A stretch of 42,426 nucleotides of DNA from a virus (taxonomy: Duplodnaviria; Caudoviricetes). The translations under genes were made by a program, and so were the position numbers. Under the pieces are notes generated by a model. The model saw only the letters and a program-made list of their open reading frames with translations. It made no database searches and had not been told where the DNA came from. The stretch spans positions 1 through 42,426 of IMG/VR virus record IMGVR_UViG_3300033067_001711. One strand, given 5' to 3'. Within the stretch, counting starts at the first letter, position 1. Each line of letters starts with the position of its first letter. Shown in pieces: positions 1,162-23,245 of the stretch.

Positions 1162-3372
1162 TTATCTCCTACCAGGCATTGGTCCAGCGCCAGGCAGCTG
1201 GGGAGGTGGCACAGGCATCTGCGGATTTGCCGACGCTTGCATCATGGCTCCTTGTTGTTGATCGAACTTACCCGCAATATCTGCGGCCACACTTGTGCCG
1301 AGACCTGCGATCTGTTCCTGTGCTGAGCCCTGATCGGCGAGACGCTTAATAAGCCAGTCTACCGATTCTGCTGGAAGGGTGGCGCGCATCGGGCGCTCGG
1401 GATTCTTCGGGTCGGGTACGTAGTAATCGACCTTGATCCGCGCGCCGCCGGAGGGAATAAACTGGCTCTGCGCCTGTTTGATCTCCTGCTGCTTCTGCGT
1501 CTCGATGTCCTCATAGAGAGAAATCAGAACTTCGTAGTTCTGCTGAATGCTAGGATCTAGCATACTGAAATCGCTCATGCGCTTTCTAGCCGTTAGCCGA
1601 CGAATCATATAAGGAGCGTCGTCATATTTGTTGGGCATCGGCTGTTCACCACGATCAAGCGCTAGAATCATGTTCTGGGCTGAATCGTAGTTAATAGTCA
1701 TGTCGGTGAAGGACTCATCGAAGTTACCAAACGGCATCTGACGCATGAGCTTGCCGATGTCTTCTTTGTCCATCTGGCTTCCCACGTACTGAAGCGCATG
1801 GTTGATCGTTAGCTGACGTCCCATCATCGTAGTGATGTCATCTGTCTGCGGTTCGACCTTGATGTTGTAGGAAAGATCGTTGGTGGTCTTGAACTCGGAG
1901 ATGTTGACCACTTCAGTGCGACCGATCATCGGAATGAGCATGTCGTCCGTGAAATAGCGCCGAGCCAAATCCAGATACGTCGAACATACGCGGCACAAAA
2001 AGCTCTCGAATTTATCGCTGTAGAGCGTGAATTTCTTCTTGTCGTGGACAGAGGCGAACAGCTGGCCAAACGGGTCTGCTGCCATTTCCTTTAGCTGCGT
2101 GTCCTCAGACAGGTTTGCCACCTGATACATCTCGGCAATCTGAGATGCTGCATAAGCTGTGTATTGATCCCCGGCGCGTCCCGCAAGGATCGTGGGAGCA
2201 ACACCAGAAAACTGGATCGAACGAATTCCGGGAAGCTGAACGCCCGTTGTAATTTTGGTACCGGACTGGATTAGGAGCTTGTCGTCTCCGAGCGTTACCT
2301 GGTGCTCGGCGATTTTCGATGCTGCGCGGTTAATCTCCGCCTGATAGGGACGGAGCTGCTTAACGATTGAACGATGGCGAGGAGATGTTTGGATCTCATC
2401 GAAGCCTTCGTAGCAGATCGGGAAGATGCCGAAGGGCAGTTCGCCCTCGAACAGGATTCCACCATCGACCGCTATGTAGAAATACCCTAGCGGGTAGTCC
2501 ACGCACGGCTTGAAGTAGTATTCCTTAAACATGACCTGATTCTCAGACTTTTGGTAATTCTGCTGATTACCGTCGAACACGAGGAACGTGTCGTCCTTCT
2601 GAGCCTTGAGCATTTTCAGCTTATCTTCATCGTTGCCTACGAGCGCTTTCGCCTCTTCAATATCAACCATCTTTCGGATGATCAGAAACTTGCTCTCATC
2701 CATCGATTTAGCAGAAGGGTCTCGGAGCAAGTTGAAGGAAAAGAGCCTCTCAATTATAAGATCGCCCGAGAAGACAGCCTGTCCCGAGGAGATCATTTGC
2801 CCTGACTCGTCTAGGACAGGCTGTCCCATCTCATCTACTTGGGCGCTATAGCCTAGAAATTTTCCAGCATTTGGATTCCAGAAAATCTTTACCGCTACCT
2901 CGCCAAGGTCAATGTAGTCCTTCGCGAGTTTTTGAGTTCGAATTTTAAGGTTCTGCTTGTCACGTCCAAACTGCCACACGGAGTTATTTAGCTCGGCGGC
3001 TTTTACGTCTTGGTTCTCTTTCGGATTTCTGGGAACGATTTTTACCGAAGGAGCGTGCTGAATGATGTTGTTGACGTAGGTTTTGGTGATCTTTTGAATG
3101 TGGTTTTTGGTGAGCCGCATCTTCTGCTCGTTGGATAAATCCTTCGAGTCTCGAATCCGGTTCCAATACTTGGCATTCTTCCGAGTGTAGTGTTCACCTG
3201 CAATAAGCAGAACGTTCGAGCGCTGCTCGGTGAAAATATCCTGATCTGCTTGGTCCGCGCTCTCATAGAGTGCGTTCAGCTCGGCAACGGTATGGCGTTT
3301 AGGTTCCGGAGAGCTGGGCGTCGATGATGGACTGCTCATGCTCAGTGATTGTGCGTCCGCCGGGTCCATCAT
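1162..3372 (-). CDS. Portal protein (podovirus/P22-like size); start codon uncertain (3390, 3372, 3369 or 3339)
   Basis: About 740 aa between TerL and scaffold. Portal-like motifs (N-x-I-x-K at the N-terminus, FPI..Y, LRPYQAEINR) and a Q/P-rich C-terminal tail. Confidence 0.8.
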   Translation of the reverse strand: MMDPADAQSLSMSSPSSTPSSPEPKRHTVAELNALYESADQADQDIFTEQRSNVLLIAGEHYTRKNAKYWNRIRDSKDLSNEQKMRLTKNHIQKITKTYVNNIIQHAPSVKIVPRNPKENQDVKAAELNNSVWQFGRDKQNLKIRTQKLAKDYIDLGEVAVKIFWNPNAGKFLGYSAQVDEMGQPVLDESGQMISSGQAVFSGDLIIERLFSFNLLRDPSAKSMDESKFLIIRKMVDIEEAKALVGNDEDKLKMLKAQKDDTFLVFDGNQQNYQKSENQVMFKEYYFKPCVDYPLGYFYIAVDGGILFEGELPFGIFPICYEGFDEIQTSPRHRSIVKQLRPYQAEINRAASKIAEHQVTLGDDKLLIQSGTKITTGVQLPGIRSIQFSGVAPTILAGRAGDQYTAYAASQIAEMYQVANLSEDTQLKEMAADPFGQLFASVHDKKKFTLYSDKFESFLCRVCSTYLDLARRYFTDDMLIPMIGRTEVVNISEFKTTNDLSYNIKVEPQTDDITTMMGRQLTINHALQYVGSQMDKEDIGKLMRQMPFGNFDESFTDMTINYDSAQNMILALDRGEQPMPNKYDDAPYMIRRLTARKRMSDFSMLDPSIQQNYEVLISLYEDIETQKQQEIKQAQSQFIPSGGARIKVDYYVPDPKNPERPMRATLPAESVDWLIKRLADQGSAQEQIAGLGTSVAADIAGKFDQQQGAMMQASANPQMPVPPPQLPGAGPMPGRR

Positions 3373-3697
3373 CCTCGATTTGCCTTTCAATCATTAGCTG
3401 CTCGTAACGGACCGGATCTTCGATCTGCATTACGGCAAGGTCTCTCTCATCCAAAGCCTCCGAGGCCTGGGTGAGTGCTTCCTTCTCAACTATCTGGGAT
3501 TGAACTTCGGCTTCCTTGGTTTGGCTTGCCGTGGGCATTTCTAAGGAGTCCTTGGTTTGGCCCTTAAAAACTACCTGTAACCCTCCGAGAACCAGCTCGG
3601 AGACCCCGCTCTTCTTACATGCCTCAAGGAGTCTTACGATATCCTTGAGGACTAGTCCCGTTTCGACCACTCGCGGTTCAGGGCTCTTGCGCTTCAT
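3299..3697 (-). CDS. Hypothetical protein between TerL and portal
   Basis: 132-aa ORF overlapping both neighbours on the coding strand. Confidence 0.6.
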   Translation of the reverse strand: MKRKSPEPRVVETGLVLKDIVRLLEACKKSGVSELVLGGLQVVFKGQTKDSLEMPTASQTKEAEVQSQIVEKEALTQASEALDERDLAVMQIEDPVRYEQLMIERQIEDDGPGGRTITEHEQSIIDAQLSGT

Positions 3698-6044
3698 TCC
3701 AGTACTCTAATTCATCCTCAACGGATTGCGACTGCTCGGACTCTTTTGAGCCCATAAACCAGTCACGCCTTTTTTCAGAGTCCGTTTTCGGCACCGCGCC
3801 TTTTATTTCCGCGAATTGATCTCCCCCATCCGAGTGTAACTCAAGATCGGAAAAATCCCAAGGCACCGCATTGGCGGCATACCTTAGCGCATCGCATAGA
3901 TCATCTTTGGCCTTTCGCTTGTCCCCGGTAGCCGAGAGCGAGCGAATTTCCGATATCAACTTTTCTAATTCGGGATCTTCCCGATAAATCTTTAGCATTC
4001 CGCTCTTAAAAAGTGTGTTTAAGAGCGAATATCCGCTGACATGGTCCTTATTTGCCGGGGAAAAGGACTCTCCCTTTGAACTTACGTGCAAAAAGAACTC
4101 TTTTGAAGCCCAGTCATATTTCTGGGCCGTCATCGTAAGCTTTCCTCGAAGCTCTCGGTATTTGGCGAAAATATCCGGCGAGGCAGTGTTGATCCCATCC
4201 CCGCGCCACGCGCGCCACACTCGGCCGTGCTTAAAATCGGGAGAGACGGCAATAAAGACTATGGCCGCCGGGTGCGCCGAGCCTCCGGTCCCCGGATCAA
4301 CGCCCGAGAAATGCTGCCAGTGTTTTGGCGGGGGATGGTATTCACTCGTGTTCCGTGCCACATCGAAAGAGGGGAACATAAGGCCTTCGGTCTTGATGAA
4401 CCGGCCATAAATCCTTCGCTGGACCTCGGCATCGGTGGGACACTTGGCGATGGCCCGCTGGATCTTAGCGTCGGTCCAGTGTGAGTCGGTACCATCAATG
4501 TATTTTTTGCACTCAAAGACCGAGACCGTTTTTTTCCACGCATTTGGATATTTCTCATCACTTGCAGTTGTTGGCTCCATGGTCTGCGCCCAGTAGAGCT
4601 GTCCTATGGTAGCGGTAAAGACCATGTGGAAGTAGCCATCGGAGGCATTTAGCCGGGCCTGCAGCTCGGGAACGAACTCCACCGGCATTTCCTCGTCACA
4701 GTTGTGCGTAAGGAAGTCATTGGCAAAGTAAGTGTGCGCGTCGTCTACGGTGATGCTGTAGACCCTACTTTCCCCGCTGATTGGCGCATTTTTTACCACA
4801 GAATCGCTGCTCGCTATCTTTGCGAGCCAGGAACTTTTTATTGCACCGCTCACAGCGAGTCTCAAACTGCCAAGCCCGGCGGCTACAAATCCGTGAACAA
4901 AAGCGGGTAGTATTTTTCTTAGATGTTCTAGAAAGAAAATCTTTCTTACAGAAGTGGCAAGTGAACGGGAAAGCTTTAGCCTTTTTCCACTCCTCGATTT
5001 TATGAATTCTAGTGTGCTCCGCCCTAGTAAGGCGACATAGATTTTTAAGCGAGTTATCCAGAGGGTTGAAGTTGGCGTGGTGGATAACGTGCCCGCGCCC
5101 GACAGGTTTTCGGTGGTGAGCTTTCCAAATATCGATGTGCAGGCAAGCGCCCGTTCTGGAGCGCCAGTAGTTTCGTACCCTACAGTCCTTGGACCATGCT
5201 TTCCGGGTGTAAATTTCTCCTTGAAAGAGTACCAGATCCGTAAAAGCTCTCTTAGGCATATAGGGGTCTTAAAGCATACATCCCCAGGCCTCAAATCCTT
5301 TGCTTCTACCCATCCCCTATTTGTGAAAAAAGGGTGTTCATCTGTGACCCTAAGGCTCGCTTTTAAGAACTCAAGTTCCCGTACTGGTGCTACACGCGAG
5401 CCGCGCGCTATAACCCTGCGGAATCCTTTATGAGAGAGTACAGAGTCCTCTTCGGTAACGTCCTCGATGTTCTTTTCGCCAAACTCGGTATGAATTTTAG
5501 TGCCCGCAGGAAAGCAAAAAATAGAGTAAACGGTACCAGACTGCAAGTCCTTGATCTTCTGCGAGTAGGTCTTAAAGTAGATCGTAACGCCCGAGTTAAA
5601 CTCGATCTTCTTAATCAATCCCTTGTCATAGAATTCGTTCCACCCATAAATCGGGTGATCTTTGTATTTTCCGCGCGGCAAAAACTGCGGCTCCCACTTC
5701 GTCTCGAACTCGGTCTGCGCGGTATCTCCGGTAGGATAAAAATACCAGAACTGATTGGGCTTCTGACCTGCCATTAATGATGGCCAAAGCTCCTGCCACT
5801 TAGAAGGATCGGTAGCCCAGTCGATTGCCTTGCGAATCTGAGTCGAGGACTTTGAGATTTGGTTCGCGGCGCACAGAAAGTTCTCTCTGTTTCGCGAATC
5901 AAAAAATTCCTTGGCCCACGAGTACCATTTAAATCCGTAGAGGTGCGGAAGCCCTTCCTGCAATTCGAGCTGCGCGCGAAGAATCTCTAGCTCTCGCTTC
6001 TTAAGTGCTAGCTCTTCCTTCTCCGTGAGCTTTTTTTTAGTCAC
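3678..6044 (-). CDS. terL: Terminase large subunit, intein-containing (about 516 aa after splicing)
   Basis: Walker A-like AANQISKS, Walker B YSIF|CDEE split by the intein, motif III FTAT, RNase H-like nuclease GVDPG and C-terminal DDLCDALRYA. Confidence 0.92.
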   Translation of the reverse strand: MTKKKLTEKEELALKKRELEILRAQLELQEGLPHLYGFKWYSWAKEFFDSRNRENFLCAANQISKSSTQIRKAIDWATDPSKWQELWPSLMAGQKPNQFWYFYPTGDTAQTEFETKWEPQFLPRGKYKDHPIYGWNEFYDKGLIKKIEFNSGVTIYFKTYSQKIKDLQSGTVYSIFCFPAGTKIHTEFGEKNIEDVTEEDSVLSHKGFRRVIARGSRVAPVRELEFLKASLRVTDEHPFFTNRGWVEAKDLRPGDVCFKTPICLRELLRIWYSFKEKFTPGKHGPRTVGYETTGAPERALACTSIFGKLTTENLSGAGTLSTTPTSTLWITRLKIYVALLGRSTLEFIKSRSGKRLKLSRSLATSVRKIFFLEHLRKILPAFVHGFVAAGLGSLRLAVSGAIKSSWLAKIASSDSVVKNAPISGESRVYSITVDDAHTYFANDFLTHNCDEEMPVEFVPELQARLNASDGYFHMVFTATIGQLYWAQTMEPTTASDEKYPNAWKKTVSVFECKKYIDGTDSHWTDAKIQRAIAKCPTDAEVQRRIYGRFIKTEGLMFPSFDVARNTSEYHPPPKHWQHFSGVDPGTGGSAHPAAIVFIAVSPDFKHGRVWRAWRGDGINTASPDIFAKYRELRGKLTMTAQKYDWASKEFFLHVSSKGESFSPANKDHVSGYSLLNTLFKSGMLKIYREDPELEKLISEIRSLSATGDKRKAKDDLCDALRYAANAVPWDFSDLELHSDGGDQFAEIKGAVPKTDSEKRRDWFMGSKESEQSQSVEDELEYWNEAQEP
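4701..5516 (-). mobile_element. Intein (272 aa, TerL residues 177-448)
   Basis: Block A CFPAGTKIHT..G.KNIEDV, block B LRVTDEHPFFTNRGWVEAKDLRPGD, block F VYSITVDDAHTYFAN and terminal THN followed by Cys+1. Confidence 0.93.
4765..5259 (-). CDS. HNH homing endonuclease with C-terminal Cys4 zinc-finger repeats, nested out of frame inside the intein
   Basis: LHIDIW...VIHHANFNPLDNSLKNLCRLTRAEHTRIH is an HNH_3-type motif, followed by two CxxC...FCxxxC modules. Has its own ATG and TAG. Confidence 0.85.
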   Translation of the reverse strand: MPKRAFTDLVLFQGEIYTRKAWSKDCRVRNYWRSRTGACLHIDIWKAHHRKPVGRGHVIHHANFNPLDNSLKNLCRLTRAEHTRIHKIEEWKKAKAFPFTCHFCKKDFLSRTSKKNTTRFCSRICSRRAWQFETRCERCNKKFLARKDSEQRFCGKKCANQRGK

Positions 6045-6217
6045 CGAAGCGCCATCTCCGCCTCAACCATATCGATCGGGGTGAGTTTCCCCTCAAGTGC
6101 TTTTGAAAGATGCTCGATCTTTTTCTGCCACTCGGGTGTTCTGAGAATTTTGTCGTTGTAGCCTTTTTTGCGGAGCTTTCTTAGAACCACATATTTCTTT
6201 GAGATTATTTCTTTCAT
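6041..6217 (-). CDS. Small basic hypothetical protein (58 aa, not in ORF track)
   Basis: MKEIISKKYVVLRKLRKKGYNDK...EMALR. ATGA overlap with the upstream gene and GTGA overlap with terL. Confidence 0.65.
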   Translation of the reverse strand: MKEIISKKYVVLRKLRKKGYNDKILRTPEWQKKIEHLSKALEGKLTPIDMVEAEMALR

Positions 6218-6876
6218 TCTGTGTCCTCCGGAGCCGATATCGCGAGCGGCGCGCCTTGAGTCTCTAGTTTACGCCGAAGCTCCAACAGCTCGGCATCGAG
6301 GGCCTCTTTTGTTAGACCCTCTGTGTGCTGGTGCATGTGAACAGATAGATTTTTCTGCTCGATGCGCTGGAGAGGTGAGCCCTTGACCCTAGAGTCTAAG
6401 AATTTGACCGCGGATAAAATAACCGCTGCGTTTTCTTTTATAAAATTTCCCGCCTCCGAAAAGAGGGGCGCTGTGAGCATTTCGCGAACGCGCTCGATCC
6501 CATAGTTGAGCGCCTCTTCGGTGGCGACTTCGTATGATACTGGGGGATGAAGCATCCACGCGTAGACATGCGGACGATCCACTACATCGACATAAAAGTA
6601 GGCCCTAGAGCAGAGATGATCATAGACTGCGGACGGGCTGATGTGGGAGAGGTTTTTCTCATGCGCCACCCGGTATTGGTTCCAGAGGCTCAACTTTAGT
6701 TGCTTTAAAAGAGTGGTTACATTGAAGTGTTGTTCCAGATCAGTCACTGACTGAGTGCAAACTTCAGTTGGCAGCGCGTGAAGCGCTCTAAGGAGCTTCC
6801 CCGTAAGGTATTGCTCAATGGTTTTTCCGAGGTGGTCTTCGGATAGATCTATTTGGGCCTCAACGACTTCGCTCAT
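6214..6876 (-). CDS. Candidate terminase small subunit
   Basis: 220-aa helical protein two genes upstream of terL. Call rests on position; no diagnostic motif. Confidence 0.4.
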   Translation of the reverse strand: MSEVVEAQIDLSEDHLGKTIEQYLTGKLLRALHALPTEVCTQSVTDLEQHFNVTTLLKQLKLSLWNQYRVAHEKNLSHISPSAVYDHLCSRAYFYVDVVDRPHVYAWMLHPPVSYEVATEEALNYGIERVREMLTAPLFSEAGNFIKENAAVILSAVKFLDSRVKGSPLQRIEQKNLSVHMHQHTEGLTKEALDAELLELRRKLETQGAPLAISAPEDTE

Positions 6877-6931
6877 CTACCCTTGATCTTGAAGGAGCTG
6901 GGCTAAAAGTCAACTCGGCGAAAGGCGATCG

Positions 6932-8630: not shown

Positions 8631-9061
8631 CCCACCCCAAGTTCCGCGAGCTGCGATAGGGCGGCGCGGGCCGTTTGACCATCATCATGACTCCAGTGAC
8701 ATTCACCCGGCTCGTCCGGCGTAGATGCAGCACGAAACAATTTTCCTGGGATTCCTTCTTCGCTGTAATTTTTGTCTTCGCTATAGAACCGCAGCGCCTC
8801 GGCCGCAGTTTCAAGTGCGTCGAGCAGCGTGAGCATTGTGGCGGGGTTCGCGGCGGTGATGTATTCGGCTAAGTCTCTCATCCCCCCATTAACCTGGATG
8901 CATTCCCACGGTCCGTTAGGATGACAAACGGAAATCACTTCGACCGGCCGATTAACAACGGTAGTTCGACCGCCCGCCATATTCCACGGGCCAGAGAAAT
9001 TAGGGCTCATGCTTTCCGCGAGTTTCCGCAGCGCCTTTATGTCGATGGGCTGGGTCGTCAT
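8627..9061 (-). CDS. Ead/Ea22-like phage protein
   Basis: IDIKALRKLAE...GPW...AEYITAANPATMLTLLDALE resembles the Ead/Ea22 N-terminal signature. Confidence 0.65.
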   Translation of the reverse strand: MTTQPIDIKALRKLAESMSPNFSGPWNMAGGRTTVVNRPVEVISVCHPNGPWECIQVNGGMRDLAEYITAANPATMLTLLDALETAAEALRFYSEDKNYSEEGIPGKLFRAASTPDEPGECHWSHDDGQTARAALSQLAELGVG

Positions 9062-9741
9062 GTACGCTCCAAGGGATAGTTGTTCAAAATATCAGAGAGC
9101 GTAAAATCAGACTCTCCGCGCAGCATGGAGGCGAGTTTGCCGCGTTGTGCGTCCCACGCTGCGGCCCTCGCTGCGTCCCACGCTGCGGCCCTCGCTGCGG
9201 CCCTCGCTGCGGCCCACGCTGCGTCCCTCGCTGCGGCCCTCGCTGCGGCCCCCGCTGCGGCCCTCGCTGCGGCCCCCGCTGCGTCCCACGCTGCGGCCCT
9301 CGCTGCGTCCCACGCTGCGGCCCACGCTGCGGCCCTCGCTGCGTCCCACGCTGCGGCCCTCGCTGCGGCCCCCGCTGCGTCCCACGCTGCGGCCCTCGCT
9401 GCGGCCCTCGCTGCGGCCCCCGCTGCGTCCCTCGCTGCGTCGTCAACTTCGCCGAGGCTAAAACGGACAGATACTTCGACCGCATTCCAGCTCCGCTTAT
9501 CGGTGAACTTTGTTAGAAACAAAGCTTCAGCGGCGCACCATGCAGCGAATCTACGCAATAGCCTTTCATCAATACATTCTTTTCGGCACACGACCCAGAG
9601 CACATCTTCCCACGGAATATCAGTGCGCATTACTAAATCGAAGGCTGTTCCAGCCCAGTCTTTTGAAAGGTGTTTCTTGGGGTCGTAACAAGGGCGCCAC
9701 GAACGAATGTCTTCAATAGTGAATTTATGTAGCTGGTTCAC
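9058..9741 (-). CDS. Phage protein with AA[R/W/G][A/D] tetrapeptide repeats
   Basis: Globular N-terminus (WRPCYDP...LRRFAAWCA) followed by 24 tetrapeptide repeats. Confidence 0.75.
9151..9438 (-). repeat. Tandem array of 24 x 12-bp units GCAGCG[A/T/G]GGG[A/C]C
   Basis: Counted directly; only two positions vary per unit. Confidence 0.95.
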
Positions 9742-14516: not shown

Positions 14517-14862
14517 CGGTGCACGGTGCAAAATATCGCAAAAAACGCCTATTAGTCAGCTGAGCTTTTATATACGTACACACAAATACACATAATGACA
14601 TTTCCCTATATCCCTATACACATTAGTTATTAAAAATATCAAACTATGCACCGGATAGGGCCTAAGCTACCGAAAAACAAGAACAAAGTTCCGGTGCATA
14701 GTTCGGTGTAAAGTTTAACTATGCACCGGAAGTCTGCACCGGATTGCCGATTTAGAACCGTCCGGCGGCATCCACCGAATCATTGACGCAGAGCCCCTTA
14801 AAATAGCGCTGACCTTCAAAGAGCGAAACTTCAAACTTTGCACCGGGCAACTTTGCACCGGA
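14517..14862. repeat. Iteron cluster AACT[A/T]TGCACCGG plus AT-rich tract: putative replication origin
   Basis: Direct copies at 14642, 14717, 14834, 14849 and a partial one near 14731. Exact inverted copy at 14690-14703, partial inverted copies at 14517, 14524 and 14704. AT-rich stretch at about 14565-14640. Confidence 0.7.
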
Positions 14863-17199
14863 AAACGCCTCATAGAACTTAATTTTGCCGATTCTGGGCT
14901 TCCGATTGTACGCCGCTTCATACCATCTGATGAATGCCTCCCAGACCGCGGACCGTAGAACCTTGCACGCCGGATCGTTAGAAACCCTCCATCCCACAAT
15001 CTCACCCTCCATAATTTCGTTGATAAACAGCGCCACCGGATCGTGCTCCATTTGCCACTGCCGCATCTTCTTTTTCCCCGAGTCGGGCGTGAAGTAGTGC
15101 CCATTGGCCTCCAAAACCTCGGTTAGCCCGTCGAGTGCGAAGTTCAAAACCCCCGTGGGGCAGGCATCAAAAACCTCGGTGGCGAAGAACTTGGAGTAGT
15201 TCCCGATGGCCTGAAAGCCCTCCACTTTAAGGAACGTCCAGCGCCGCTCGTGGGCCCTGGAGCCCTTCTCAAAGGTCGCCGGGATGTCGTTACCTCCGAA
15301 GATATGGACCCTGGGGAGGGGGGCCATTACCGAGGTTTTGAACTTCCGATCGATTCGGATAGGGAGCCCGTCTTCGATCTTCTTGATGTGGTTATCGCGG
15401 ATGGGTTCGGTGACCGAGATATCGGTGACAAAGTTCACGAGTTTTCCGGCCATGGACTCCATTTTAAAGCCGTCGAACTCATGCGGCTCCACAGAGCACC
15501 AGTTTCCCGAGGACACTAGTTTTTGGGCCGGGATAATAAGAGAAGTCTTTCCCGATCCGGCCGGGCCGTAGATCATAAACAGGTGGGGGAAGATCGGCGC
15601 TACGGCTGCCCCGTACATTTGCCGAACGGTTTTAATCTTCTCTACCGAGTCTTCCTGGCCCTCGAACACGCGCTCTAGCATCTGCTCGAACTCAGTGTTT
15701 TTAATTTTCCGAGTCTCGTCGAACTCGATGGGGATGAGATTTGTGCAGAAGTCCTTACGAGCGTGGGGCCGAAAATCGAACTGCCATTTCCCCGCGCGCT
15801 GCAGAATATGAATCGTGCCGTTGAGAAGATTTATCATGGTGGGATCGGGAACGAAAAGATTCCTTGGGGAGTCTTTTATCATCGCACGAAAGATTCTAAG
15901 CGTGCCCTCCATCTTGGTGTTTGAGGCAAGCCCCGAGTAGAGCACTTGAAGCTGCATGCGCAGGCGGTTCTCATCCTGAATTTGCATTTCCACCCAGTGC
16001 GTTCCCGAAAAAACAAAGATCGATCCTTCCGAGCTTACGATTCGGTCCTTGTAAAAATTGGCCAGCGCCTTAGCTACCTCGTACTCAGGCGGCATAATGG
16101 GAACGCCCGATTTAGAGAGCTTCATCGGAAGCGGCTCAAGACCCGGCTCCGTGTGCTCTGCTACTAATTCCCTACCCGAGGCGGCTTTGATGTGACCATC
16201 AGCTGCAGCAAGAGCCTGTTTTGTTCCCTTTTCCACTAATTCCTCCACCGTTTGAAAGGTTCGCTGCCACTCATCCGTGGGCCGCGCCGCACGGCTCACC
16301 GCAAGCTCTAGCTGTCCCTCCACCATCGAGAGAGAATAGCCGCACATCAGATCATTGAAATCCGTCCAATCAAGTCCGCGCGCCTTGGGGAAAACAGGAA
16401 GCACCAGCGTTCCCGATATCAGCTCCGCGGCCCGCGCTCCCGCCTCCACGCCCACATTAGGCGTCTCCTTCCAATCATCGTCCGCGCAGATAATGATCTT
16501 CGCGCCAAGGTTCTGCTTTCGTATCTCAGCTGCTACCTCGCACAAATTCCCCGCGGAGAAAGCGCAGATCACCCGATCGTTTGGCCTTGCCATCGCCACC
16601 GTGCACGCCGTCGAATACCCCTCGCAGATAAAGATCGCCTCCTCTTTATAGCTAGAGGGACTAAGACATGCCCACAGGCCGCGAACCTTTGCCCCAGGAA
16701 CAAACGTTTTCATGCCGCTCTCGGTGATGGTCTGGTAGTTCCAGATATTTCCCTGGGAGTCCTGCATCGGCACGATAAGATCAGTGCCTACCGAGGGAGA
16801 TTCGATTTGGATGGCCCCTAAGGCCTGGGGGATTTTCTTTCGCTCAAGATATTTGGAGTGCCCGCCCCAGTTTTCCCTTAGGTATTGGTCTATCCGTTTG
16901 ATGACCGACTTTGATGCCTCTAGCTGCAGGCGCTCTCTCTCGGCATCGGCAGCCTCCCTTCGCTCTTTCTCCGCTTCCCAGTCCGCAGCACTAGGCGCCT
17001 CGCCGCCCCACACGTAGAAGTTTTTTGCACCCCCGCGCCATGAGGCCACGGTTACTGTGCACCGCCCCGATTCATTTTTTGAGCCCTTGTACCAGCCCTT
17101 GAAATCCGCGCTCCTCAGCTGATGAACCTCGCCATCGAGTAGAAGATCAGTATCTTCTCCAATGGAGGCGAGAAATTTTTCCAAATCGTTTTTATCCAT
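14752..17199 (-). CDS. P4-alpha-like primase-helicase (TOPRIM primase plus D5/SF3 helicase)
   Basis: TOPRIM motifs ICEGYSTA, IICADDD and DFND; helicase Walker A GPAGSGKT and RRW arginine finger. AAGGGGA RBS before the ATG at 17199. Confidence 0.88.
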   Translation of the reverse strand: MDKNDLEKFLASIGEDTDLLLDGEVHQLRSADFKGWYKGSKNESGRCTVTVASWRGGAKNFYVWGGEAPSAADWEAEKERREAADAERERLQLEASKSVIKRIDQYLRENWGGHSKYLERKKIPQALGAIQIESPSVGTDLIVPMQDSQGNIWNYQTITESGMKTFVPGAKVRGLWACLSPSSYKEEAIFICEGYSTACTVAMARPNDRVICAFSAGNLCEVAAEIRKQNLGAKIIICADDDWKETPNVGVEAGARAAELISGTLVLPVFPKARGLDWTDFNDLMCGYSLSMVEGQLELAVSRAARPTDEWQRTFQTVEELVEKGTKQALAAADGHIKAASGRELVAEHTEPGLEPLPMKLSKSGVPIMPPEYEVAKALANFYKDRIVSSEGSIFVFSGTHWVEMQIQDENRLRMQLQVLYSGLASNTKMEGTLRIFRAMIKDSPRNLFVPDPTMINLLNGTIHILQRAGKWQFDFRPHARKDFCTNLIPIEFDETRKIKNTEFEQMLERVFEGQEDSVEKIKTVRQMYGAAVAPIFPHLFMIYGPAGSGKTSLIIPAQKLVSSGNWCSVEPHEFDGFKMESMAGKLVNFVTDISVTEPIRDNHIKKIEDGLPIRIDRKFKTSVMAPLPRVHIFGGNDIPATFEKGSRAHERRWTFLKVEGFQAIGNYSKFFATEVFDACPTGVLNFALDGLTEVLEANGHYFTPDSGKKKMRQWQMEHDPVALFINEIMEGEIVGWRVSNDPACKVLRSAVWEAFIRWYEAAYNRKPRIGKIKFYEAFSGAKLPGAKFEVSLFEGQRYFKGLCVNDSVDAAGRF

Positions 17200-17397
17200 T
17201 GATATCCCCTTATTCTGAGCCTTGGCCGAGTGGCCTACGCTCTTCGCAAAAACTCGTTCGGTCAAGATGTCGTCCACGCGATTTTTTGTAAAACTATTTG
17301 GCTTGCACAAGGCTAGGTCTCATTTTATGAGTGAACCGTGAGCCGCGGAAGCCCTTGCCGCAAGTAGGTAAGTGCCCGGGCTTACAAGAAAGATTTT

Positions 17398-17586
17398 ATG
17401 GTAAACGATGAAGTAGCCACAGTTCGCACGATGCTAGATGCCATGACTCAGGAGCGCGATGAACTGAAGATTAATCTAGACTATACGCGCCGTCAGCTGC
17501 TTAAGGCCGAGTCGGAGGCCGCGACGCTAAGGCGGCTTGTGCTCGAATTTTTTTCCAAGACCCTAGAGAAGCAAGCCGGTGAGTGA
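17398..17586 (+). CDS. Coiled-coil hypothetical protein
   Basis: First ORF of the rightward replication operon. Confidence 0.55.
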   Translation: MVNDEVATVRTMLDAMTQERDELKINLDYTRRQLLKAESEAATLRRLVLEFFSKTLEKQAGE

Positions 17587-17705
17587 TGAGCTGCGCCTCG
17601 ACGGTTTGTCTTGATTGTGGGCATGAGATGAATCATGTGCTGCGGGCCACGTGCGATAAGTGCGGCTCATCGAACGTGGATCACGACTGGGATGAAGAGC
17701 CGTGA
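17586..17705 (+). CDS. 39-aa zinc-ribbon protein (not in ORF track)
   Basis: MSCASTVCLDCGHEM...TCDKCGSSNV; TGATG overlap. Confidence 0.55.
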   Translation: MSCASTVCLDCGHEMNHVLRATCDKCGSSNVDHDWDEEP

Positions 17706-17854
17706 AGCGCGCGCTCATGTGGATATTATCCAAGATCAGCCGAGCGAAGGAAAAGCGCCGAGCTGTATCGCTTTTGGGTGAGGTCTACTATCCTTTTCCT
17801 CCGTACCTAGTTTTTAAGAAAGCCAAGCATAAGGAGAAAGAGCATGGAGGGTAA
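17702..17854 (+). CDS. 50-aa basic hypothetical protein (not in ORF track)
   Basis: GTGA overlap; fills the gap in the operon. Confidence 0.4.
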   Translation: MKRALMWILSKISRAKEKRRAVSLLGEVYYPFPPYLVFKKAKHKEKEHGG

Positions 17855-18095
17855 AGTTGTTGTACGTGTCCGCATCCCGAGGGTAGTGACCGACAATCCC
17901 ATGGTTACTTTTGAATCTCGGGACGGGAAGTTCGCGCAGTCGGTGATGCTTACATCACCAATCATTCGGTGGATGAACGGAAAGTATGAGGGGTATTTTG
18001 AGCTTGAGATCCGTGGAGCGCGAATCGTGGGACTTACGCCCGTTGGAGAGGAAAGGTTTTTCAATGAGCCAGAGGAAGAGGCTGAACGTGAGTGA
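17844..18095 (+). CDS. Hypothetical protein
   Basis: AAGGAG RBS. Confidence 0.6.
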   Translation: MEGKVVVRVRIPRVVTDNPMVTFESRDGKFAQSVMLTSPIIRWMNGKYEGYFELEIRGARIVGLTPVGEERFFNEPEEEAERE

Positions 18096-18288
18096 CATCA
18101 TGTCCTCGAATGGTCCTATTATAAAAAAGGATGAGGGCACGCAGATGCCTCTCTTTGATCTGGCAAGCGTCACACCAAAGAACGGCCCCCCCAGCACTAA
18201 GTTTCCCTTCGTTCGGCATCTATCAGATGATGATTTAGCGGAGCTTAATCTAGTTGTTCAGCGCGAGATAACTGGTAGAGCGCCGTAG
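18088..18288 (+). CDS. Hypothetical protein (start uncertain)
   Basis: GAGG before the GTG at 18088, in frame with track ORF 17986..18288. Confidence 0.45.
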   Translation: MSDIMSSNGPIIKKDEGTQMPLFDLASVTPKNGPPSTKFPFVRHLSDDDLAELNLVVQREITGRAP

Positions 18289-18293
18289 ATCAC

Positions 18294-19727
18294 ATGCAGC
18301 CGCTTTGGAAACATCAGATAGAGACCATTGAGCTTGCGAGGACGAAAGCAAGCTTTGGGCTTCTGCACGAGGCGGGCACTGGTAAGACGCGCACTATGAT
18401 TGAGATCTTTCGTCAAAAATGCGCTAACAAAAATTCACTTCTAAAGACCTTGATCCTTTGCCCGCAGGTCGTGATGAACAACTGGAGATCCGAGATTCTA
18501 AAGTTCTCGAAGATCTCCGGGGACGACATCGTACTTTTAACTGGCCCGGGGAAAAATCGTCTTGAGCTTCTCGTGTGGCACACCGGGCACGCGAAGACGC
18601 CGCGAGTTTTCATCGCGAACTACGAAACGCTTTTAATGCCCGAGGTGTACAAACATTTTTTAGGATACGGCCTCGAGTGCATCATTGCCGATGAATCGCA
18701 CCGAATTAAATCTCACAACTCGAAGCGAACGAAGGCCCTTTTACAGCTGGCAAAGCCGGTTCCGCACAAATTTATTCTCACCGGAACGCCCGTGCTGCAG
18801 TCGCCGCTTGATCTGTTCTCGCAGTTTTTGTTTTTGGACGGTGGTGAGACATTCTCTCCTGTGGGGAGCAATTTTTTTGCATTTCGAAACCACTTCTTTT
18901 TTAACAAAAATGCAGGTGCTCCGTCGCACGTAAGCTGGCCTGATTGGAGAATACGGCCCGGCGCTACCGATGAGATATCGGCGCGGATCAAAAGGATCAC
19001 AACGCACTATAAGAAATCGGAGTGTCTTGATCTCCCTCCCATGGTCTACAAGACCATACCAGTTGAGCTAAGCGCCGAGCAGCGCAGACACTACGATATG
19101 ATGAAGAAGAATTTCATCACGTTTTTAGAGGATAAGGCCTGCACGGCTCAGCTTGCCATTACCAAAGCGCTTAGGCTGCAGCAGATTGTATCGGGGTTTA
19201 TCCAGCTCGAGGGAGAAGAGAGCGTGGTTCAGCTCAAGGACAATCCGCGGCTCGCGGCCCTTGAGGACATTATTGAGGATCTGGTGATTGAGTCGGGGCG
19301 CAAGGTCATCGTCTGGGCATGCTGGCGAGAGAATTACAAACAGATCAGCGAGATGCTCGACCGAAAGAAGGTGTCCTATGTTCAGGCGCATGGAGAAATT
19401 CCTCAGCGACTCAGACAAAAAGCAATTGATGATTTCTGTAAAGATGGGGGCGCAAGCGTATTCATTGGAAATCAAGGGGCCGCTGGGATCGGTATCAACC
19501 TTGTCGAGGCGGGTTATGCTATTTATTATTCGCGAAACTTCAGCCTTGAACATGACATACAGTCTGAGGCACGAAACTACCGTGGAGGAAGCGAGAAGCT
19601 CCACGAGTCCGTCACCCGAATTGATTTAGTCGCTAATGGAACAATCGACGAAAGCATTCTGCAAGCACTTGCATCAAAGCAAGAGGTAGGGGATAAGGTT
19701 CTTCGGGACATGGCAAAGAGACTATGA
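18294..19727 (+). CDS. SNF2-family (DEAD/DEAH-like) helicase
   Basis: EAGTGKT, DESH, LTGTP, GIGINL and QSEARNYR motifs. Confidence 0.9.
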   Translation: MQPLWKHQIETIELARTKASFGLLHEAGTGKTRTMIEIFRQKCANKNSLLKTLILCPQVVMNNWRSEILKFSKISGDDIVLLTGPGKNRLELLVWHTGHAKTPRVFIANYETLLMPEVYKHFLGYGLECIIADESHRIKSHNSKRTKALLQLAKPVPHKFILTGTPVLQSPLDLFSQFLFLDGGETFSPVGSNFFAFRNHFFFNKNAGAPSHVSWPDWRIRPGATDEISARIKRITTHYKKSECLDLPPMVYKTIPVELSAEQRRHYDMMKKNFITFLEDKACTAQLAITKALRLQQIVSGFIQLEGEESVVQLKDNPRLAALEDIIEDLVIESGRKVIVWACWRENYKQISEMLDRKKVSYVQAHGEIPQRLRQKAIDDFCKDGGASVFIGNQGAAGIGINLVEAGYAIYYSRNFSLEHDIQSEARNYRGGSEKLHESVTRIDLVANGTIDESILQALASKQEVGDKVLRDMAKRL

Positions 19728-19951
19728 GCGATAAACAGCCGATTCTTGAAGAACACACTTTCGATTTTGGTGGGCACATCATCAAGGTCTCGTGTTCGGT
19801 ATCGGGTGATCGGCGATATATTGAGTGTATTTTAGAGGGCTCAGAGCCCATGAGTAGGCTAGAGGTAGCGACGATTTTTGGCGTATGCCACGATAACTTA
19901 ATGGCGGGGGTGAAGAAGCCGCTTCCCGATTACGCCATGAAGATGAATTAG
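19724..19951 (+). CDS. Hypothetical protein
   Basis: ATGA overlap. Confidence 0.55.
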   Translation: MSDKQPILEEHTFDFGGHIIKVSCSVSGDRRYIECILEGSEPMSRLEVATIFGVCHDNLMAGVKKPLPDYAMKMN

Positions 19952-19960
19952 GAGAATGAG

Positions 19961-20386
19961 ATGGGTGACTTAACGGTTCTAGAGCTAAAAGCCATGTGCG
20001 AAAAGGTTGTGGTCATGCGCGAGCAGATTGAGAAGGCTAAGGCTGTCTATAGCTCGCTTTGTAACCAGGGTGATTTACTGGAGGCTGAACTCATTGATGC
20101 GATGGCTAAGCTCGACATGCGAAGCTTTAAAGAAGGCGGACTTAATTTTATTAGAACCGAGAAGAGTTCCGTCACTATTCCGAAGGGTGAGGCGAAGGAC
20201 GAGTTTTTTGACTACCTCAAAAAAGTTGGGCACTTTGAGGCGCTTGCCACTGTGAACTCGGCAACGCTTAATTCTTGGTACAAATCCGAGGATGAAGCGG
20301 CAAAGGCGCGCGGTGAACCATATGCCGTTATTCCCGGCCTTGAGATGCCCACCATTCGAGTTGGTCTTACGGTTCGAAAAGCGTAA
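19961..20386 (+). CDS. Coiled-coil replication-module protein
   Basis: AGGAG RBS; N-terminal coiled coil and TVNSATLNSW...IPG motif; lies between helicase and SSB-like genes. Confidence 0.6.
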   Translation: MGDLTVLELKAMCEKVVVMREQIEKAKAVYSSLCNQGDLLEAELIDAMAKLDMRSFKEGGLNFIRTEKSSVTIPKGEAKDEFFDYLKKVGHFEALATVNSATLNSWYKSEDEAAKARGEPYAVIPGLEMPTIRVGLTVRKA

Positions 20387-20438
20387 TAAACTCTGCGCGG
20401 AATTTTTCCCCAAAGAGATGAATTAAAGGAGCGATAAA

Positions 20439-21215
20439 ATGGCAAAGGTAGAAACAAAAAAAGAAGTAGCTGTAGTTGAGCCGGTGCATATGCCTGTAGT
20501 GCACAGCCACGCAAAGAGCGTTGTGGATTCGGCGGATATCATTGTGCCGAAGCTTCTCTTGGCGCAGGGGTTATCGGTGAGCGTTGCCGATGGCAAGGCC
20601 AAGATGGGAGACATTACCAACTCTCTTACGGGAGCCGTGGTCGGCGGTCCTAGTAATGATGTTCCGTTCATTCCTATTACGCTCAAGAAATATTGGAAGC
20701 GTTTTGAAACCGTGAACGGCAAGCGTCAGTATCGGGGAAATGAAGAGTTCAACGAGGCGAACCGCAGCCGTGATCTAGTAGAGATGCGCGGCACGGCTAA
20801 ATGGGAATATGACCTTGTGATCGATGCCTACGGATTCACCGAGGAAGACGTACAAGATCCCATTGCGCTTCCTTGTGTGGTGAGTTTCACGCGCACTTCC
20901 TATAAGGCGGGACAGAAGATGAATACTCACTTCGCCTCGCTTGATGGTGCGATCCCGCGCCTTGCGCATTACACCTACAAAATGGCTATCACTTGTAAGA
21001 AGATCCAAAATGATAAGGGCATCTTCTACGTCTTCGATGTTAAGCCCATGCTCGATGGAACAAAGATCGCAAAAACTCCCGCCGAGTACTTCCCGAAGAT
21101 AGAGCGCTGGGAGCAAATTTTAACTGATAGCAGTAGCAACATCACGGTCGATGGCGGCGCAGAAGAGGATGCTGTTTCCACTTCGTCGTCTTCGGTTGAT
21201 GAATCAAGATTTTAA
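20439..21215 (+). CDS. Putative single-stranded DNA-binding protein
   Basis: Upstream of PolA; acidic/Ser-rich tail ending in Phe. Confidence 0.55.
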   Translation: MAKVETKKEVAVVEPVHMPVVHSHAKSVVDSADIIVPKLLLAQGLSVSVADGKAKMGDITNSLTGAVVGGPSNDVPFIPITLKKYWKRFETVNGKRQYRGNEEFNEANRSRDLVEMRGTAKWEYDLVIDAYGFTEEDVQDPIALPCVVSFTRTSYKAGQKMNTHFASLDGAIPRLAHYTYKMAITCKKIQNDKGIFYVFDVKPMLDGTKIAKTPAEYFPKIERWEQILTDSSSNITVDGGAEEDAVSTSSSSVDESRF

Positions 21216-21224
21216 GGAGAACAA

Positions 21225-21389
21225 ATGAAGATCCAGAACATCGATAATACGCCCCTGTACGTATACATTCCGATCAAACTAAAAAAGAAGTTTGAGAAGA
21301 TTGCCACTCGTAAGGGGACGAGCCTTAGCGCTCTCACGCGCATGATGCTTGAGGAATACGTTAGCAAAGAAAGTAGCAAGCCGTCGTGA
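21225..21389 (+). CDS. Ribbon-helix-helix DNA-binding protein (54 aa, not in ORF track)
   Basis: AAGGAG RBS; LYVYIP..LKKKFEKIA...GTSLSALTRMMLEEYV; GTGA overlap with the polymerase gene. Confidence 0.7.
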   Translation: MKIQNIDNTPLYVYIPIKLKKKFEKIATRKGTSLSALTRMMLEEYVSKESSKPS

Positions 21390-23245
21390 TTATCGTAACG
21401 CCCGAAACATTCGAAGAGTGCGTTCGGGCGTTGTTTGCTCACACCTTCCTTGCGGTAGATACCGAGACGACGGGCCTTTTCCCCTATAAGAAGGACCGTC
21501 TATTCTCGATTCAGTTCTCCACTAGCTCGGAAGACTATTATTTCAATTTCATCGAATACAGTCCGGAGCAGAAGGCTCCGGTACTCTCCTATGATCTAAT
21601 CCCGAAGCTTCAGCCGCTTTTCACGCGCACCACGCTTTTTCTTCAGAACGCAAAGTTCGACATGGCCTTCCTTCGGAAAGAAGGGATTAATTTCAACGAG
21701 GCACAGATCCATGATACCGAGGTTGTGGGGAGACTACTTAGAAACGATCATCTGAAGTACTCCCTTGATGCTCAGTGTGAGAGAGAGCTTGGTGAGCGCA
21801 AAGACGACTCGGTGATGGAGTGGCTTAAAAAAAATAAAAAATACTCCATCGTGGAGATACCAGGGAAAGATACCCCCTATAAGGCATACCACTTCGATGA
21901 AGTTCCGTTTGAGCTGATAACTCGGTACGGATGTAAAGATACGCGGTTAACTTTTCATTTGGCTCAAAAGCAGCTGCAGCAGCTAGATCTCGTCCCTGAT
22001 CTCTCAAAGGTTGTAGAGATGGAGTCAAAGCTGATTCACGTGTGCGCGGAGATTGAGCGGGTGGGGATCGGCCTTGATCGGGACTATTGCCAGCAGGCCG
22101 CGGACTATGAGTCAAAGAGAGCGGAGATTGCCGAGGAAGAGTTCGAGAAAATCACGGGCCAGGATCTTACCGATTCGGGCAAGTTTTTGGGGCCTATATT
22201 TGAGGCGCTTGGGTTTAAGCCGGAGTTTACCGAGACAGGAGAGTTTGAGGTAGCCGAAGGATTTTTGTCTTCGGTTACGCACCCGCTAGCTGAGATTGTT
22301 CTTCGGTACCGAGACGCTAGAAAGCGGGCCAACAACTACTTCAAGGGTTACCTCCATTTTGTGGATCGGCACGGGAACGTGCACGCCGACATGCGCCAGG
22401 CAGGGACGCGCACTGGGCGATTTTCGTACCGCGATCCTAACCTTCAGAATATCTCCGGAGATACTGAAGAGGTTGAATTCCCCATACGCCGGGCTTTTGT
22501 GCCGAGGCCCGGTTTTTTCTTCCTATCGCTCGACTATAAGCAGATGGAATTCTGCATGCTTCTCGATGAGTCGGGACAGCAGGATCTAATCCAGCAGCTA
22601 AAGTCCGGGCACGATGCCCACGATGCTACAGCTAAGCTTACGGGCCTTTCTCGAAAGCAGGCGAAGACCCTAAACTTCGGCCTTTTGTATGGCATGGGAG
22701 TGGCCAAGCTAGGTGCTGCGATTGGGGTTAGTCGCGAGGAAGCAGCTAAGTTTAAGCGTCAGTACTTTGCAGCGCTCCCGATGGTGGAGCATTTTATCCT
22801 TCAATGCTCGGGAGCTGTTCGGCAGCGTATATCCCGCGATCCTGGCAATGGCTGGATTAAGACCTGGTTCGGAAGACGCGGCTACTTTGATGATGAGAAG
22901 TGGTCCTATAAAGCCGCAAACTTTCGGATCCAGGGAGGCTGCGCCGACGTGGTTAAGATCGCCATGTGCAATCTCCACGATCTTCTGAAGGATAAGAAAT
23001 CTCGCATGGTTCTTCAGGTCCACGACGAACTTTTGTTTGAGGTCGCCTTTGATGAGCAGGACATCATAGGGGAGATTATCAAAACCATGGAGAGCGCCTA
23101 CCCCGCTAGGTCCCTACCTATGAGCGTATCGGTGGGCTATAGCCTAAAATCTTTCTATGATATCGTGGAGGAAGATCCGAGGGGGAAGGTAGTTGGCCAA
23201 GAAGGCGGAGAGCACATTCAAGGAGCGGATTTATCCAAGCCTTAA
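21386..23245 (+). CDS. polA: DNA polymerase family A with 3'-5' exonuclease
   Basis: ExoI DTETTG, ExoII NAKFD, TGRFS..PNLQNI, motif A LDYKQME, motif B RKQAKTLNFGLLYG and motif C QVHDE. Confidence 0.93.
   Translation: MIIVTPETFEECVRALFAHTFLAVDTETTGLFPYKKDRLFSIQFSTSSEDYYFNFIEYSPEQKAPVLSYDLIPKLQPLFTRTTLFLQNAKFDMAFLRKEGINFNEAQIHDTEVVGRLLRNDHLKYSLDAQCERELGERKDDSVMEWLKKNKKYSIVEIPGKDTPYKAYHFDEVPFELITRYGCKDTRLTFHLAQKQLQQLDLVPDLSKVVEMESKLIHVCAEIERVGIGLDRDYCQQAADYESKRAEIAEEEFEKITGQDLTDSGKFLGPIFEALGFKPEFTETGEFEVAEGFLSSVTHPLAEIVLRYRDARKRANNYFKGYLHFVDRHGNVHADMRQAGTRTGRFSYRDPNLQNISGDTEEVEFPIRRAFVPRPGFFFLSLDYKQMEFCMLLDESGQQDLIQQLKSGHDAHDATAKLTGLSRKQAKTLNFGLLYGMGVAKLGAAIGVSREEAAKFKRQYFAALPMVEHFILQCSGAVRQRISRDPGNGWIKTWFGRRGYFDDEKWSYKAANFRIQGGCADVVKIAMCNLHDLLKDKKSRMVLQVHDELLFEVAFDEQDIIGEIIKTMESAYPARSLPMSVSVGYSLKSFYDIVEEDPRGKVVGQEGGEHIQGADLSKP

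What the first reader, a model, noticed from the sequence alone, without database searches (positions are those of the whole stretch)
4701..5516. Intein whose homing endonuclease is a separate gene overprinted in another reading frame
Seen: the TerL intein (Cys1 at 5516, His-Asn ending at 4701, Cys+1) is open end to end, but its central ~165 codons have no nuclease motif and read like S/T/R/L-rich alternative-frame text. The same DNA, shifted by +2 nt on the same strand (5259..4765), encodes a clean HNH nuclease plus two Cys4 zinc modules with its own ATG and TAG. It starts just after block B and ends just before block F, the slot where inteins normally carry an in-frame endonuclease. Established: canonical inteins encode the endonuclease as an in-frame domain. 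Inference: this is a dual-coding mobile element in which the intein shelters a free-standing nuclease gene and splices out its junk-frame translation, uncoupling nuclease expression from splicing. A second frame staying stop-free for 165 codons has roughly a (61/64)^165 (about 4e-4) chance under uniform codon use, which suggests selection. I cannot verify from here whether this architecture has been described.
Basis: partly seen in the sequence, partly recalled or inferred. Interest (0 to 1): 0.93.

Follow-up and report, generated by a model that had tools for sequence, protein, structure and literature searches.

The report
Terminase intein hiding out-of-frame HNH gene
A phage DNA-packaging gene carries a predicted self-splicing protein insert (intein) whose middle also encodes, in a shifted reading frame, an intact HNH nuclease gene that likely spreads the insert into empty copies of the gene; the layout is conserved in many phages, and its general kind was already in print with other nucleases.

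Summary
Confirmed. terL (6044..3678) holds a 272-aa intein (5516..4701). The same DNA at +2 encodes a 164-aa HNH_3 nuclease with two Cys4 modules (5259..4765), closest in predicted fold to the nicking homing enzyme I-HmuI. It is no artefact: two runs show no differences, and a ~99%-identical phage has the empty allele (exactly 816 nt shorter). Among 119 related inteins, 87 carry this nuclease, all at +2. Median dN/dS is 0.24 in the nuclease frame and 1.0 in the intein frame. The first ATG lies within 10 codons of the upstream stop in 77 of 87 (about 6 expected). Free-standing relatives sit beside terL, and mini, fractured and possibly escaped forms exist. The +2 bias likely follows from composition: 6 versus 21 expected stops. 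Splicing, expression and cutting are untested, and the gene has no Shine-Dalgarno site. The architecture is known: Brucella phage TerL intein with out-of-frame HNH (2015; +1 frame, different HNH type), frame-3 EndoVII inteins (2025) and the dnaX +2 LAGLIDADG (2026). Eight literature searches did not show this family. The scan has noted the arrangement before (44 notes, at least 42 other genomes). New variant of a known kind.

The parts
3678..6044 (-). terL, terminase large subunit precursor (788 aa = 516-aa extein + 272-aa intein)
   Evidence: ORF; PHROG 2 terminase large subunit E 2.6e-16; Terminase_6C; intein-less homologs of 510-545 aa
4701..5516 (-). Intein, class-1 type: Cys1, block B T58-x-x-H61, His271-Asn272
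   Evidence: C1, T58, H61, N272 invariant in 37 aligned inteins; HINT fold, gp41-1 intein E 4.7e-6; absent from the near-identical X3 phage
5262..5516 (-). N-terminal splicing half (residues 1-85)
   Evidence: pLDDT 95-97 over residues 1-80
4765..5259 (-). Nested HNH nuclease gene, frame +2 relative to the intein, 164 aa, own ATG and TAG
   Evidence: AlphaFold mean pLDDT 86.4; top VIA match I-HmuI, Z 7.2, rmsd 2.8, 73 residues aligned
5008..5142 (-). HNH_3 catalytic core (residues 40-84; H60, H61, N69, N73, H82)
   Evidence: Pfam HNH_3; those five residues and H41 invariant in 89 of 89 nested proteins
4885..4959 (-). First Cys4 module (C101, C104, C121, C125), predicted zinc-binding DNA-binding unit
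   Evidence: C101 and C104 in 89 of 89, C121 and C125 in 88 of 89; function inferred
4786..4854 (-). Second Cys4 module (C136, C139, C154, C158)
   Evidence: aligned in 57-58 of 89 nested proteins; function inferred
4701..4763 (-). Blocks F/G of the intein (V252..N272)
   Evidence: pLDDT 93-96 over residues 251-272
4689..4700 (-). +1 Cys and the DEE motif (Walker B of the ATPase; label recalled): the insertion site
   Evidence: alignment with intein-less TerL; the X3 empty allele has Ala at +1
5517..5724 (-). One-sided divergent tract upstream of the intein relative to the empty allele; candidate co-conversion patch
   Evidence: 11 differences in 30 nt at 5524-5553 and 18 at 5619-5724, against 9 in 1095 nt downstream and 7 in 800 nt further upstream
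1162..3390 (-). Portal gene (context)
   Evidence: P22_portal E 3.3e-11; PHROG 156 portal

Best explanation
A class-1-type intein sits in frame at a conserved motif of the phage terminase, and the DNA of its central region also encodes an intact HNH nuclease in the +2 frame, which is likely translated on its own and likely nicks intein-less terL alleles so that the whole insert is copied in. Shown: both frames, the empty allele, and family-wide conservation of frame, start and stop with purifying selection on the nuclease frame only. Inferred steps: (1) the 788-aa precursor splices out 272 aa, including about 165 aa of unconstrained text, and gives a 516-aa TerL; (2) ribosomes start weakly at the internal ATG, which has no Shine-Dalgarno site, and make small amounts of nuclease; (3) in mixed infections the nuclease nicks the empty allele, and repair copies the intein plus some upstream flank; (4) the element arose when a terL-associated free-standing HNH gene landed in a mini-intein, +2 being the frame that costs the fewest stops in terL.
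For: Splicing residues and HINT fold intact; TerL would otherwise be split at its DEE motif. Empty allele in a ~99%-identical phage, 816 nt shorter. 87 of 87 HNH-bearing inteins are at +2. dN/dS medians over 12 disjoint pairs: 0.24 nuclease frame, 1.0 intein frame, 0.18 splicing half. Window against 7 same-site inteins: 46-49% identity in the nuclease frame, 19-30% in the intein frame. First ATG within 10 codons of the upstream stop in 77 of 87, about 6 expected. Catalytic His/Asn invariant in 89 of 89. Top structural match is I-HmuI, a nicking homing enzyme (PMC2988022). Intein identity exceeds every flank bin in 11 of 13 pairs, e.g. 0.98 against 0.52-0.77. Splicing domain and nuclease travel together: nearest-neighbour agreement 32 of 75, about 3 by chance. 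Free-standing relatives lie next to terminase genes in 7 GenBank phage records (and, fractured, 103). Expected stops are 6.1 for +2 against 20.7 for +1.
Against: No RNA or protein evidence was obtained. There is no Shine-Dalgarno site (-1.4 kcal/mol, whereas 13 of 18 other window genes reach -6 or lower; family 20 of 87 at -4 or lower against 24.6% of controls) and no sigma-70 promoter match nearby, so how the gene is read is open. Z 7.2 is in the range the tool calls ambiguous, and Foldseek gave E 0.64. The window has no close relative for its own dN/dS. The identity pairs were chosen for intein similarity and share members. The direction of the X3 patch (gain or loss) is unknown. Splicing-versus-nuclease tree congruence is weak at depth (Mantel rho 0.21).
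Confidence: 0.82

Rival explanations
1. The nuclease is made by -1 ribosomal frameshifting from the terL frame, as a TerL(N)-intein(N)-HNH fusion; +2 equals -1.
For: All 87 lie in the -1 frame; no Shine-Dalgarno enrichment.
Against: The start codon is conserved: ATG in 81 and GTG/TTG in 6 of 87, a median of 4 codons after a stop in its own frame; in L011 and L010 the stop directly precedes the ATG. Slippery heptamers near the start are no more frequent than elsewhere (0.0115 against 0.0109 per codon). Where the ORF starts at the block-B Trp codon, A precedes it in 30 of 31, against 8 of 37 elsewhere (related sequences). Composition explains the frame bias.
Confidence: 0.07
2. The nested HNH is a domesticated packaging helper of the terminase (gp74-like) rather than a homing enzyme.
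For: Free-standing relatives cluster at the packaging genes; PMC4422536 raises this for the Brucella phage gene.
Against: The near-identical X3 phage lacks it at this locus. L007 carries a mini-intein without it while its flanks are 99-100% identical to those of the full-intein phage L166. Most listed TerL homologs are 510-545 aa, i.e. empty. Family members also sit in DegT-like exteins.
Confidence: 0.05
3. The nuclease gene here is a recently silenced relic, and only the splicing domain still works.
For: No ribosome-binding site; decayed members exist (L003, L007 second intein, L234).
Against: All catalytic and Cys residues are intact; an empty allele exists in a near-identical phage; purifying selection in the family.
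Confidence: 0.05
4. Assembly artefact: compensating indels hide a canonical in-frame HNH intein.
For: Only contigs, not raw reads, were available.
Against: Two samples agree; the +2 frame has stops throughout both splicing halves; 86 other inteins and 4 GenBank phage genomes share the layout.
Confidence: 0.01

Closest known systems
Brucella phage (Tb and relatives) TerL intein with out-of-frame HNH (Tevdoradze et al. 2015, PMC4422536; GenBank JN939331 ORF07/ORF08)
   Same: TerL intein, same-strand nested HNH gene with Cys modules, own start and stop
   Different: Frame +1, not +2. Pfam HNH (PF01844) at the C-terminus with Cys modules first, against HNH_3 first here. No significant pairwise similarity (best E 0.10). 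Different insertion site.
Actinophage inteins with an endonuclease VII-like gene in frame 3 (Gosselin, Arsenault, Gogarten, bioRxiv 10.1101/2025.01.02.630785)
   Same: Same strand, frame 3 (= +2), unstructured in-frame text; many non-canonical inteins in TerL; origin proposed from a free-standing nuclease
   Different: Nuclease family (EndoVII-like against HNH_3/I-HmuI-like). Their HNH inteins are in frame. The present family occurs in phages of Actinomycetota, Bacillota and Pseudomonadota hosts and in a Bacteroidales MAG. Their supplementary table could not be read.
Cyanobacterial dnaX intein with +2 LAGLIDADG gene (Phillips, DeSimone, Gogarten, bioRxiv 10.64898/2026.09.14.751524)
   Same: +2 ORF; frame-specific dN/dS with the same pattern; full, mini and empty alleles coexist
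   Different: Chromosomal dnaX and LAGLIDADG; putative Shine-Dalgarno motifs reported there, not enriched here
ShiLan element: out-of-frame HNH in a phage methylase (Arsenault et al. 2025, PMC11855218)
   Same: Hidden out-of-frame HNH, open host frame, no ribosome-binding site
   Different: No splicing domain; the passenger text stays in the host protein
Fractured genes with split inteins and a free-standing nuclease (Dassa et al. 2009, PMC2677866)
   Same: Nuclease gene between intein halves; Lactobacillus phage CL2 shows this form with the present HNH family
   Different: Here the intein frame stays continuous; their nucleases are GIY-YIG and Vsr-like
I-HmuI (PDB 1u3e), group I intron-encoded nicking HNH homing endonuclease
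   Same: Best structural match over residues 11-91
   Different: Intron-encoded; the match does not extend to the Cys4 modules

Membership tests
Intein, class 1 | Cys/Ser at 1, block B TxxH, terminal His-Asn, Cys/Ser/Thr at +1 (motif definitions recalled) | tested here: met
   C1, T58, H61, H271, N272, C+1
Intein, class 1 | HINT fold formed by both ends | tested here: met
   pLDDT 93-97 at both ends and 37-62 over residues 101-230; 32 PDB matches at E<=0.001, best gp41-1 intein
Intein, class 1 | Exact in-frame insert relative to an empty allele | tested here: met
   816 nt net in X3; spliced length 516 equals P0005
Intein, class 1 | Protein splicing activity | not testable with these tools
   needs a bench assay
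Intein, class 3 | Cys at block F position 4 (recalled) | tested here: not met
   Ser254
Canonical bifunctional intein | Endonuclease encoded in frame | tested here: not met
   no nuclease family in the intein frame; 0 of 87 in frame; 0 of the top 150 representative proteins carry intein ends
HNH homing endonuclease, I-HmuI-like | HNH_3 motif with intact His/Asn residues | tested here: met
HNH homing endonuclease, I-HmuI-like | Fold of the I-HmuI nuclease domain | tested here: inconclusive
   top rank in both searches, but Z 7.2 (rmsd 2.8, 73 aligned) and Foldseek E 0.64
HNH homing endonuclease, I-HmuI-like | Site-specific nicking of the empty allele, and homing | not testable with these tools
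   indirect signs only
Non-canonical out-of-frame-nuclease inteins (Gosselin 2025; Phillips 2026) | Separate same-strand nuclease ORF in frame +2 between the splicing halves, under its own selection | tested here: met
Gosselin frame-3 EndoVII type | Endonuclease VII-like nuclease | tested here: not met
   Pfam at E<=0.1 gives only HNH_3 and a weak DZR_2; their sequences were not compared directly
Brucella-phage nested HNH type | +1 frame, PF01844 HNH behind the Cys modules | tested here: not met
Terminase-accessory HNH (gp74-like) | Needed for DNA packaging | tested here: inconclusive
   absent at this locus in X3 and in mini-intein twin L007; a copy elsewhere in those genomes was not excluded

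The most novel reading that the evidence does not exclude
This is a large, annotation-invisible lineage of phage inteins whose homing nuclease is initiated inside an actively translated essential gene, mostly without a Shine-Dalgarno site. In one subclade the start codon is built from the intein's own conserved Trp codon, so that about 15 codons work in both frames. Free-standing, nested, fractured, escaped and mini forms of one nuclease family are all extant, which makes the 'splicing first, nuclease captured later' model directly testable.
Probability: 0.4. Interest if true: 0.62.

Novelty: new variant of a known kind. Interest (0 to 1): 0.4.

Why it matters
The family shows that out-of-frame nucleases are not a rarity among phage terminase inteins. 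In an intein-only search, 39 of 67 distinct inteins had one and only 1 had an in-frame HNH (ranking biased towards the query). These genes are not annotated in 4 GenBank phage records. A single nuclease family shows every stage proposed for how inteins acquire nucleases, and there is a simple compositional reason for the frame chosen. It also offers compact candidate nicking enzymes aimed at terminase motifs, which could mediate competition between phages. The principle itself is already published, which caps the surprise.

Tried and rejected
Single-sequence searches found almost nothing: 0 HNH relatives in viral contigs or the word-indexed protein set, and 1 distant intein; alignments were needed. 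No RNA holder was listed. Runs X5 and X7 laid nothing; X4 and X6 laid only short extein pieces. A PDB sequence search with the HNH profile gave nothing below E 0.05, and Foldseek nothing at E<=0.001; EndoVII was not in the VIA list, which excludes nothing. No sigma-70 promoter match, no Shine-Dalgarno enrichment and no slippery-site excess. A blastn of one member against GenBank phage records gave no match. The GTDB scan gave 1 locus. The HNH tree does not settle single versus repeated origin: 14 non-intein rows among 89 nested need 9 changes, but starred branches force only 1. Literature searches for phiCDHM19 + intein and 'Brucella phage' + intein + HNH returned nothing. Three of 122 intein calls were dropped before counting: L142 (start cut), a spurious long call in L236, and L110 (start mis-set by one residue; it also has a +2 HNH). 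Rejected: indel artefact; in-frame canonical intein; class 3 intein; the uniform-codon chance estimate.
Full report
Observation. The window is a 42,426-base virus record, 99% complete by CheckV. terL runs 6044..3678 (-), 788 aa. Residues 177-448 (5516..4701) form an intein: Cys1, T58-x-x-H61, His-Asn, followed by CDEE. Its predicted structure has confident ends (pLDDT 93-97) that match HINT domains, best gp41-1 at E 4.7e-6, and a low-confidence middle. The same DNA shifted +2 encodes a 164-aa ORF, 5259..4765, with Pfam HNH_3 at E 2e-7 and two Cys4 modules. Its model has mean pLDDT 86.4. The top match among 48,161 chains is the homing endonuclease I-HmuI (Z 7.2, rmsd 2.8, 73 aligned; next Z 4.6), although Foldseek ranks the same chain first at only E 0.64. 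I-HmuI nicks one strand (PMC2988022, passages).

Not an artefact. Run X1 (probably the source) and run X2 (second sample, same study) show no differences or gaps over the intein; X2 lacks 5104-5131, and both are contigs rather than raw reads. Run X3, from another study, holds a phage about 99% identical on both sides that skips 859 nt and has 43 other letters there, 816 net, exactly the intein. The matching 516-aa protein P0005 differs from the window's exteins at 6 positions (one is the initiator), including Ala for Cys at +1. The differences cluster on the upstream side: 11 of 30 nt at 5524-5553 and 18 at 5619-5724, against 9 in 1095 nt downstream and 7 in 800 nt at 6101-6900. This is what a homing event with one-sided co-conversion from a diverged donor would leave. 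A recombinational loss or an escape allele fits too; the direction is not shown.

The family. Among the best 120 of 1151 TerL homologs, most are empty and 13 aligned ones carry inteins at or 5 residues before this site. In 12 of the 13 the middles are long and read like the window's passenger text; one is shorter. Loci were fetched by a junction pattern, a TerL alignment, an HNH alignment and an intein alignment. They gave 122 distinct intein calls, 119 after three were dropped. 87 (window included) contain this HNH at 30 bits or more, all in frame +2; 28 are 180 aa or shorter; 4 are other. The four are a decayed +2 copy, an in-frame LAGLIDADG, an in-frame PF01844 HNH, and a DUF559 nuclease at +1. 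In the intein-only search (80 of 180 hits kept, ranked by likeness to the window's intein), 39 of 67 new distinct inteins were of this type. From the HNH side, 54 of 98 distinct hits lay inside an open intein frame at +2 and 44 did not. Most of the 44 are weak, one (L146, 34 bits) is in frame beside an intein half, and eight score 61-82 bits. By flanking motifs the sites are 10 DE-type, 8 G.DFG.|CDP-type, 67 others (mostly DH|CD-type near the C-terminus of TerL-like proteins) and 2 DegT-like (labels inferred). Four GenBank phage genomes carry the nested form unannotated: TJE1, phiCDHM19, Highwayman and LS06-2018-MD07.

Selection. For 12 disjoint pairs (NG86, dS 0.1-1.6, taken from 78 pairs) median dN/dS is 0.24 in the nuclease frame, 1.0 in the intein frame over the same bases, and 0.18 in the N-terminal splicing half. 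The window has no relative close enough for this. Against 7 same-site inteins it keeps 46-49% identity in the nuclease frame and 19-30% in the intein frame, with most change at third positions of nuclease codons. H41, H60, H61, N69, N73, H82, C101 and C104 are invariant in 89 of 89 nested proteins. The start is ATG in 81 and GTG/TTG in 6 of 87. The first ATG is within 10 codons of the upstream stop in 77 (about 6 expected), and the stop lies 12-29 codons before the intein's end in 84. In 31 inteins the ORF opens by the block-B Trp codon, preceded by A in 30 against 8 of 37 elsewhere, so about 15 codons serve both proteins (related sequences, so not independent).

Mobility and origin. Intein identity exceeds all flank bins in 11 of 13 pairs (pairs picked for intein likeness). 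Splicing domain and nuclease trees agree at the tips (32 of 75 nearest neighbours, about 3 by chance) but weakly overall (rho 0.21). Mini-inteins have full twins (L007/L166, L278/L266). Free-standing relatives lie between terL and portal in PAE1, SN1, EauM-23, Poludnitsa and Shemara (antisense), and before terS in BP10. CL2 has the fractured form. Synonymous resampling of the nested proteins gives 6.1 expected stops in the host frame for +2 and 20.7 for +1, and 9 of 10 non-intein relatives have fewer stops in the +2 host frame. This explains the uniform frame without needing one origin. The tree does not decide between one capture with escapes and several captures.

How it is read is open. The nested ATG has no Shine-Dalgarno site (-1.4 kcal/mol), whereas 13 of 18 other window genes reach -6 or lower. 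The family shows no enrichment, though phiCDHM19 has one (-8.2). Starts are less structured than the rest of the intein in 68 of 87, which A+T content may confound. No promoter match and no slippery-site excess were found. I commit to weak independent initiation at the ATG (inferred), with -1 frameshifting as the main rival.

Prior art. Tevdoradze 2015 (PMC4422536, passages) states that an intein-encoded HNH lies out of frame within TerL in all annotated brucellaphage genomes. I found that gene to be +1, of the PF01844 type, and without significant pairwise similarity to this one; this lead came from earlier scan note e1-6014328. Gosselin 2025 (abstract, passages, sections 8 and 15) reports frame-3 EndoVII-like and antisense nucleases; its supplements are closed and could list members of this family. 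Phillips 2026 (abstract, most of the introduction, results, section 17) reports a +2 LAGLIDADG with frame-specific dN/dS. Also seen: Arsenault 2025 (abstract, discussion) and Dassa 2009 (passages). Gorbalenya 1998 and Kala 2014 were seen only as citations. Eight full-text searches showed no description of the HNH_3/+2 family; subscription journals are not covered. The scan's own notes hold 44 findings with these words in at least 42 other genomes; these are unchecked and not counted as support.

Verdict. The feature is real and well supported, and it most likely works as a homing intein with a separately encoded nicking nuclease (0.82). It belongs to the non-canonical out-of-frame inteins and is a new nuclease variant of them. 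Interest 0.4.

Noticed in passing
L320:1414-2480 (Lactobacillus phage CL2, KR905067): TerL ends in an intein N-half and a stop, then comes a same-family HNH gene, then the intein C-half plus C-extein in another frame, unannotated: a fractured gene with a likely split intein.
   Followed up: partly
L273:2649-3431: Intein with a DUF559 (Vsr-like) nuclease ORF in the +1 frame on the same strand (E 3.5e-10); Gosselin reports this nuclease type antisense.
   Followed up: partly
L148:2247-3041; L191:2253-3062: The nested family also sits in DegT-like aminotransferase exteins (label inferred from the flanks), not only in TerL.
   Followed up: no
L097 near 2421; L224 near 1020: HNH genes outside any detected intein whose +2 host frame still has 0 stops (4-6 expected): possible escapes from inteins.
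   Followed up: partly
L003:1653-2165; L007 second intein; L234:1231-1758: Decay intermediates: the HNH core is deleted while Cys-module remnants stay at +2.
   Followed up: partly
L321:1382-2368 (phiCD119): Same element as in phiCDHM19 but broken by several frameshifts, annotated as a truncated terL plus a hypothetical protein; sequence error or decay.
   Followed up: no
P0041, P0112, P0075, P0114, L047: The window's TerL family has further intein sites: before CDA in the nuclease domain, and LAGLIDADG-type inteins near the N-terminal NQxSK motif.
   Followed up: no
window 9058-9741 (-): 227-aa ORF with a long Ala-rich AARAAAWDA repeat; several frames are open; no Pfam hit.
   Followed up: no
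window 14752-23245 and 34558-35322: Toprim/D5-like primase-helicase, SNF2 helicase, family A polymerase, and a C1q-domain protein among the structural genes.
   Followed up: no
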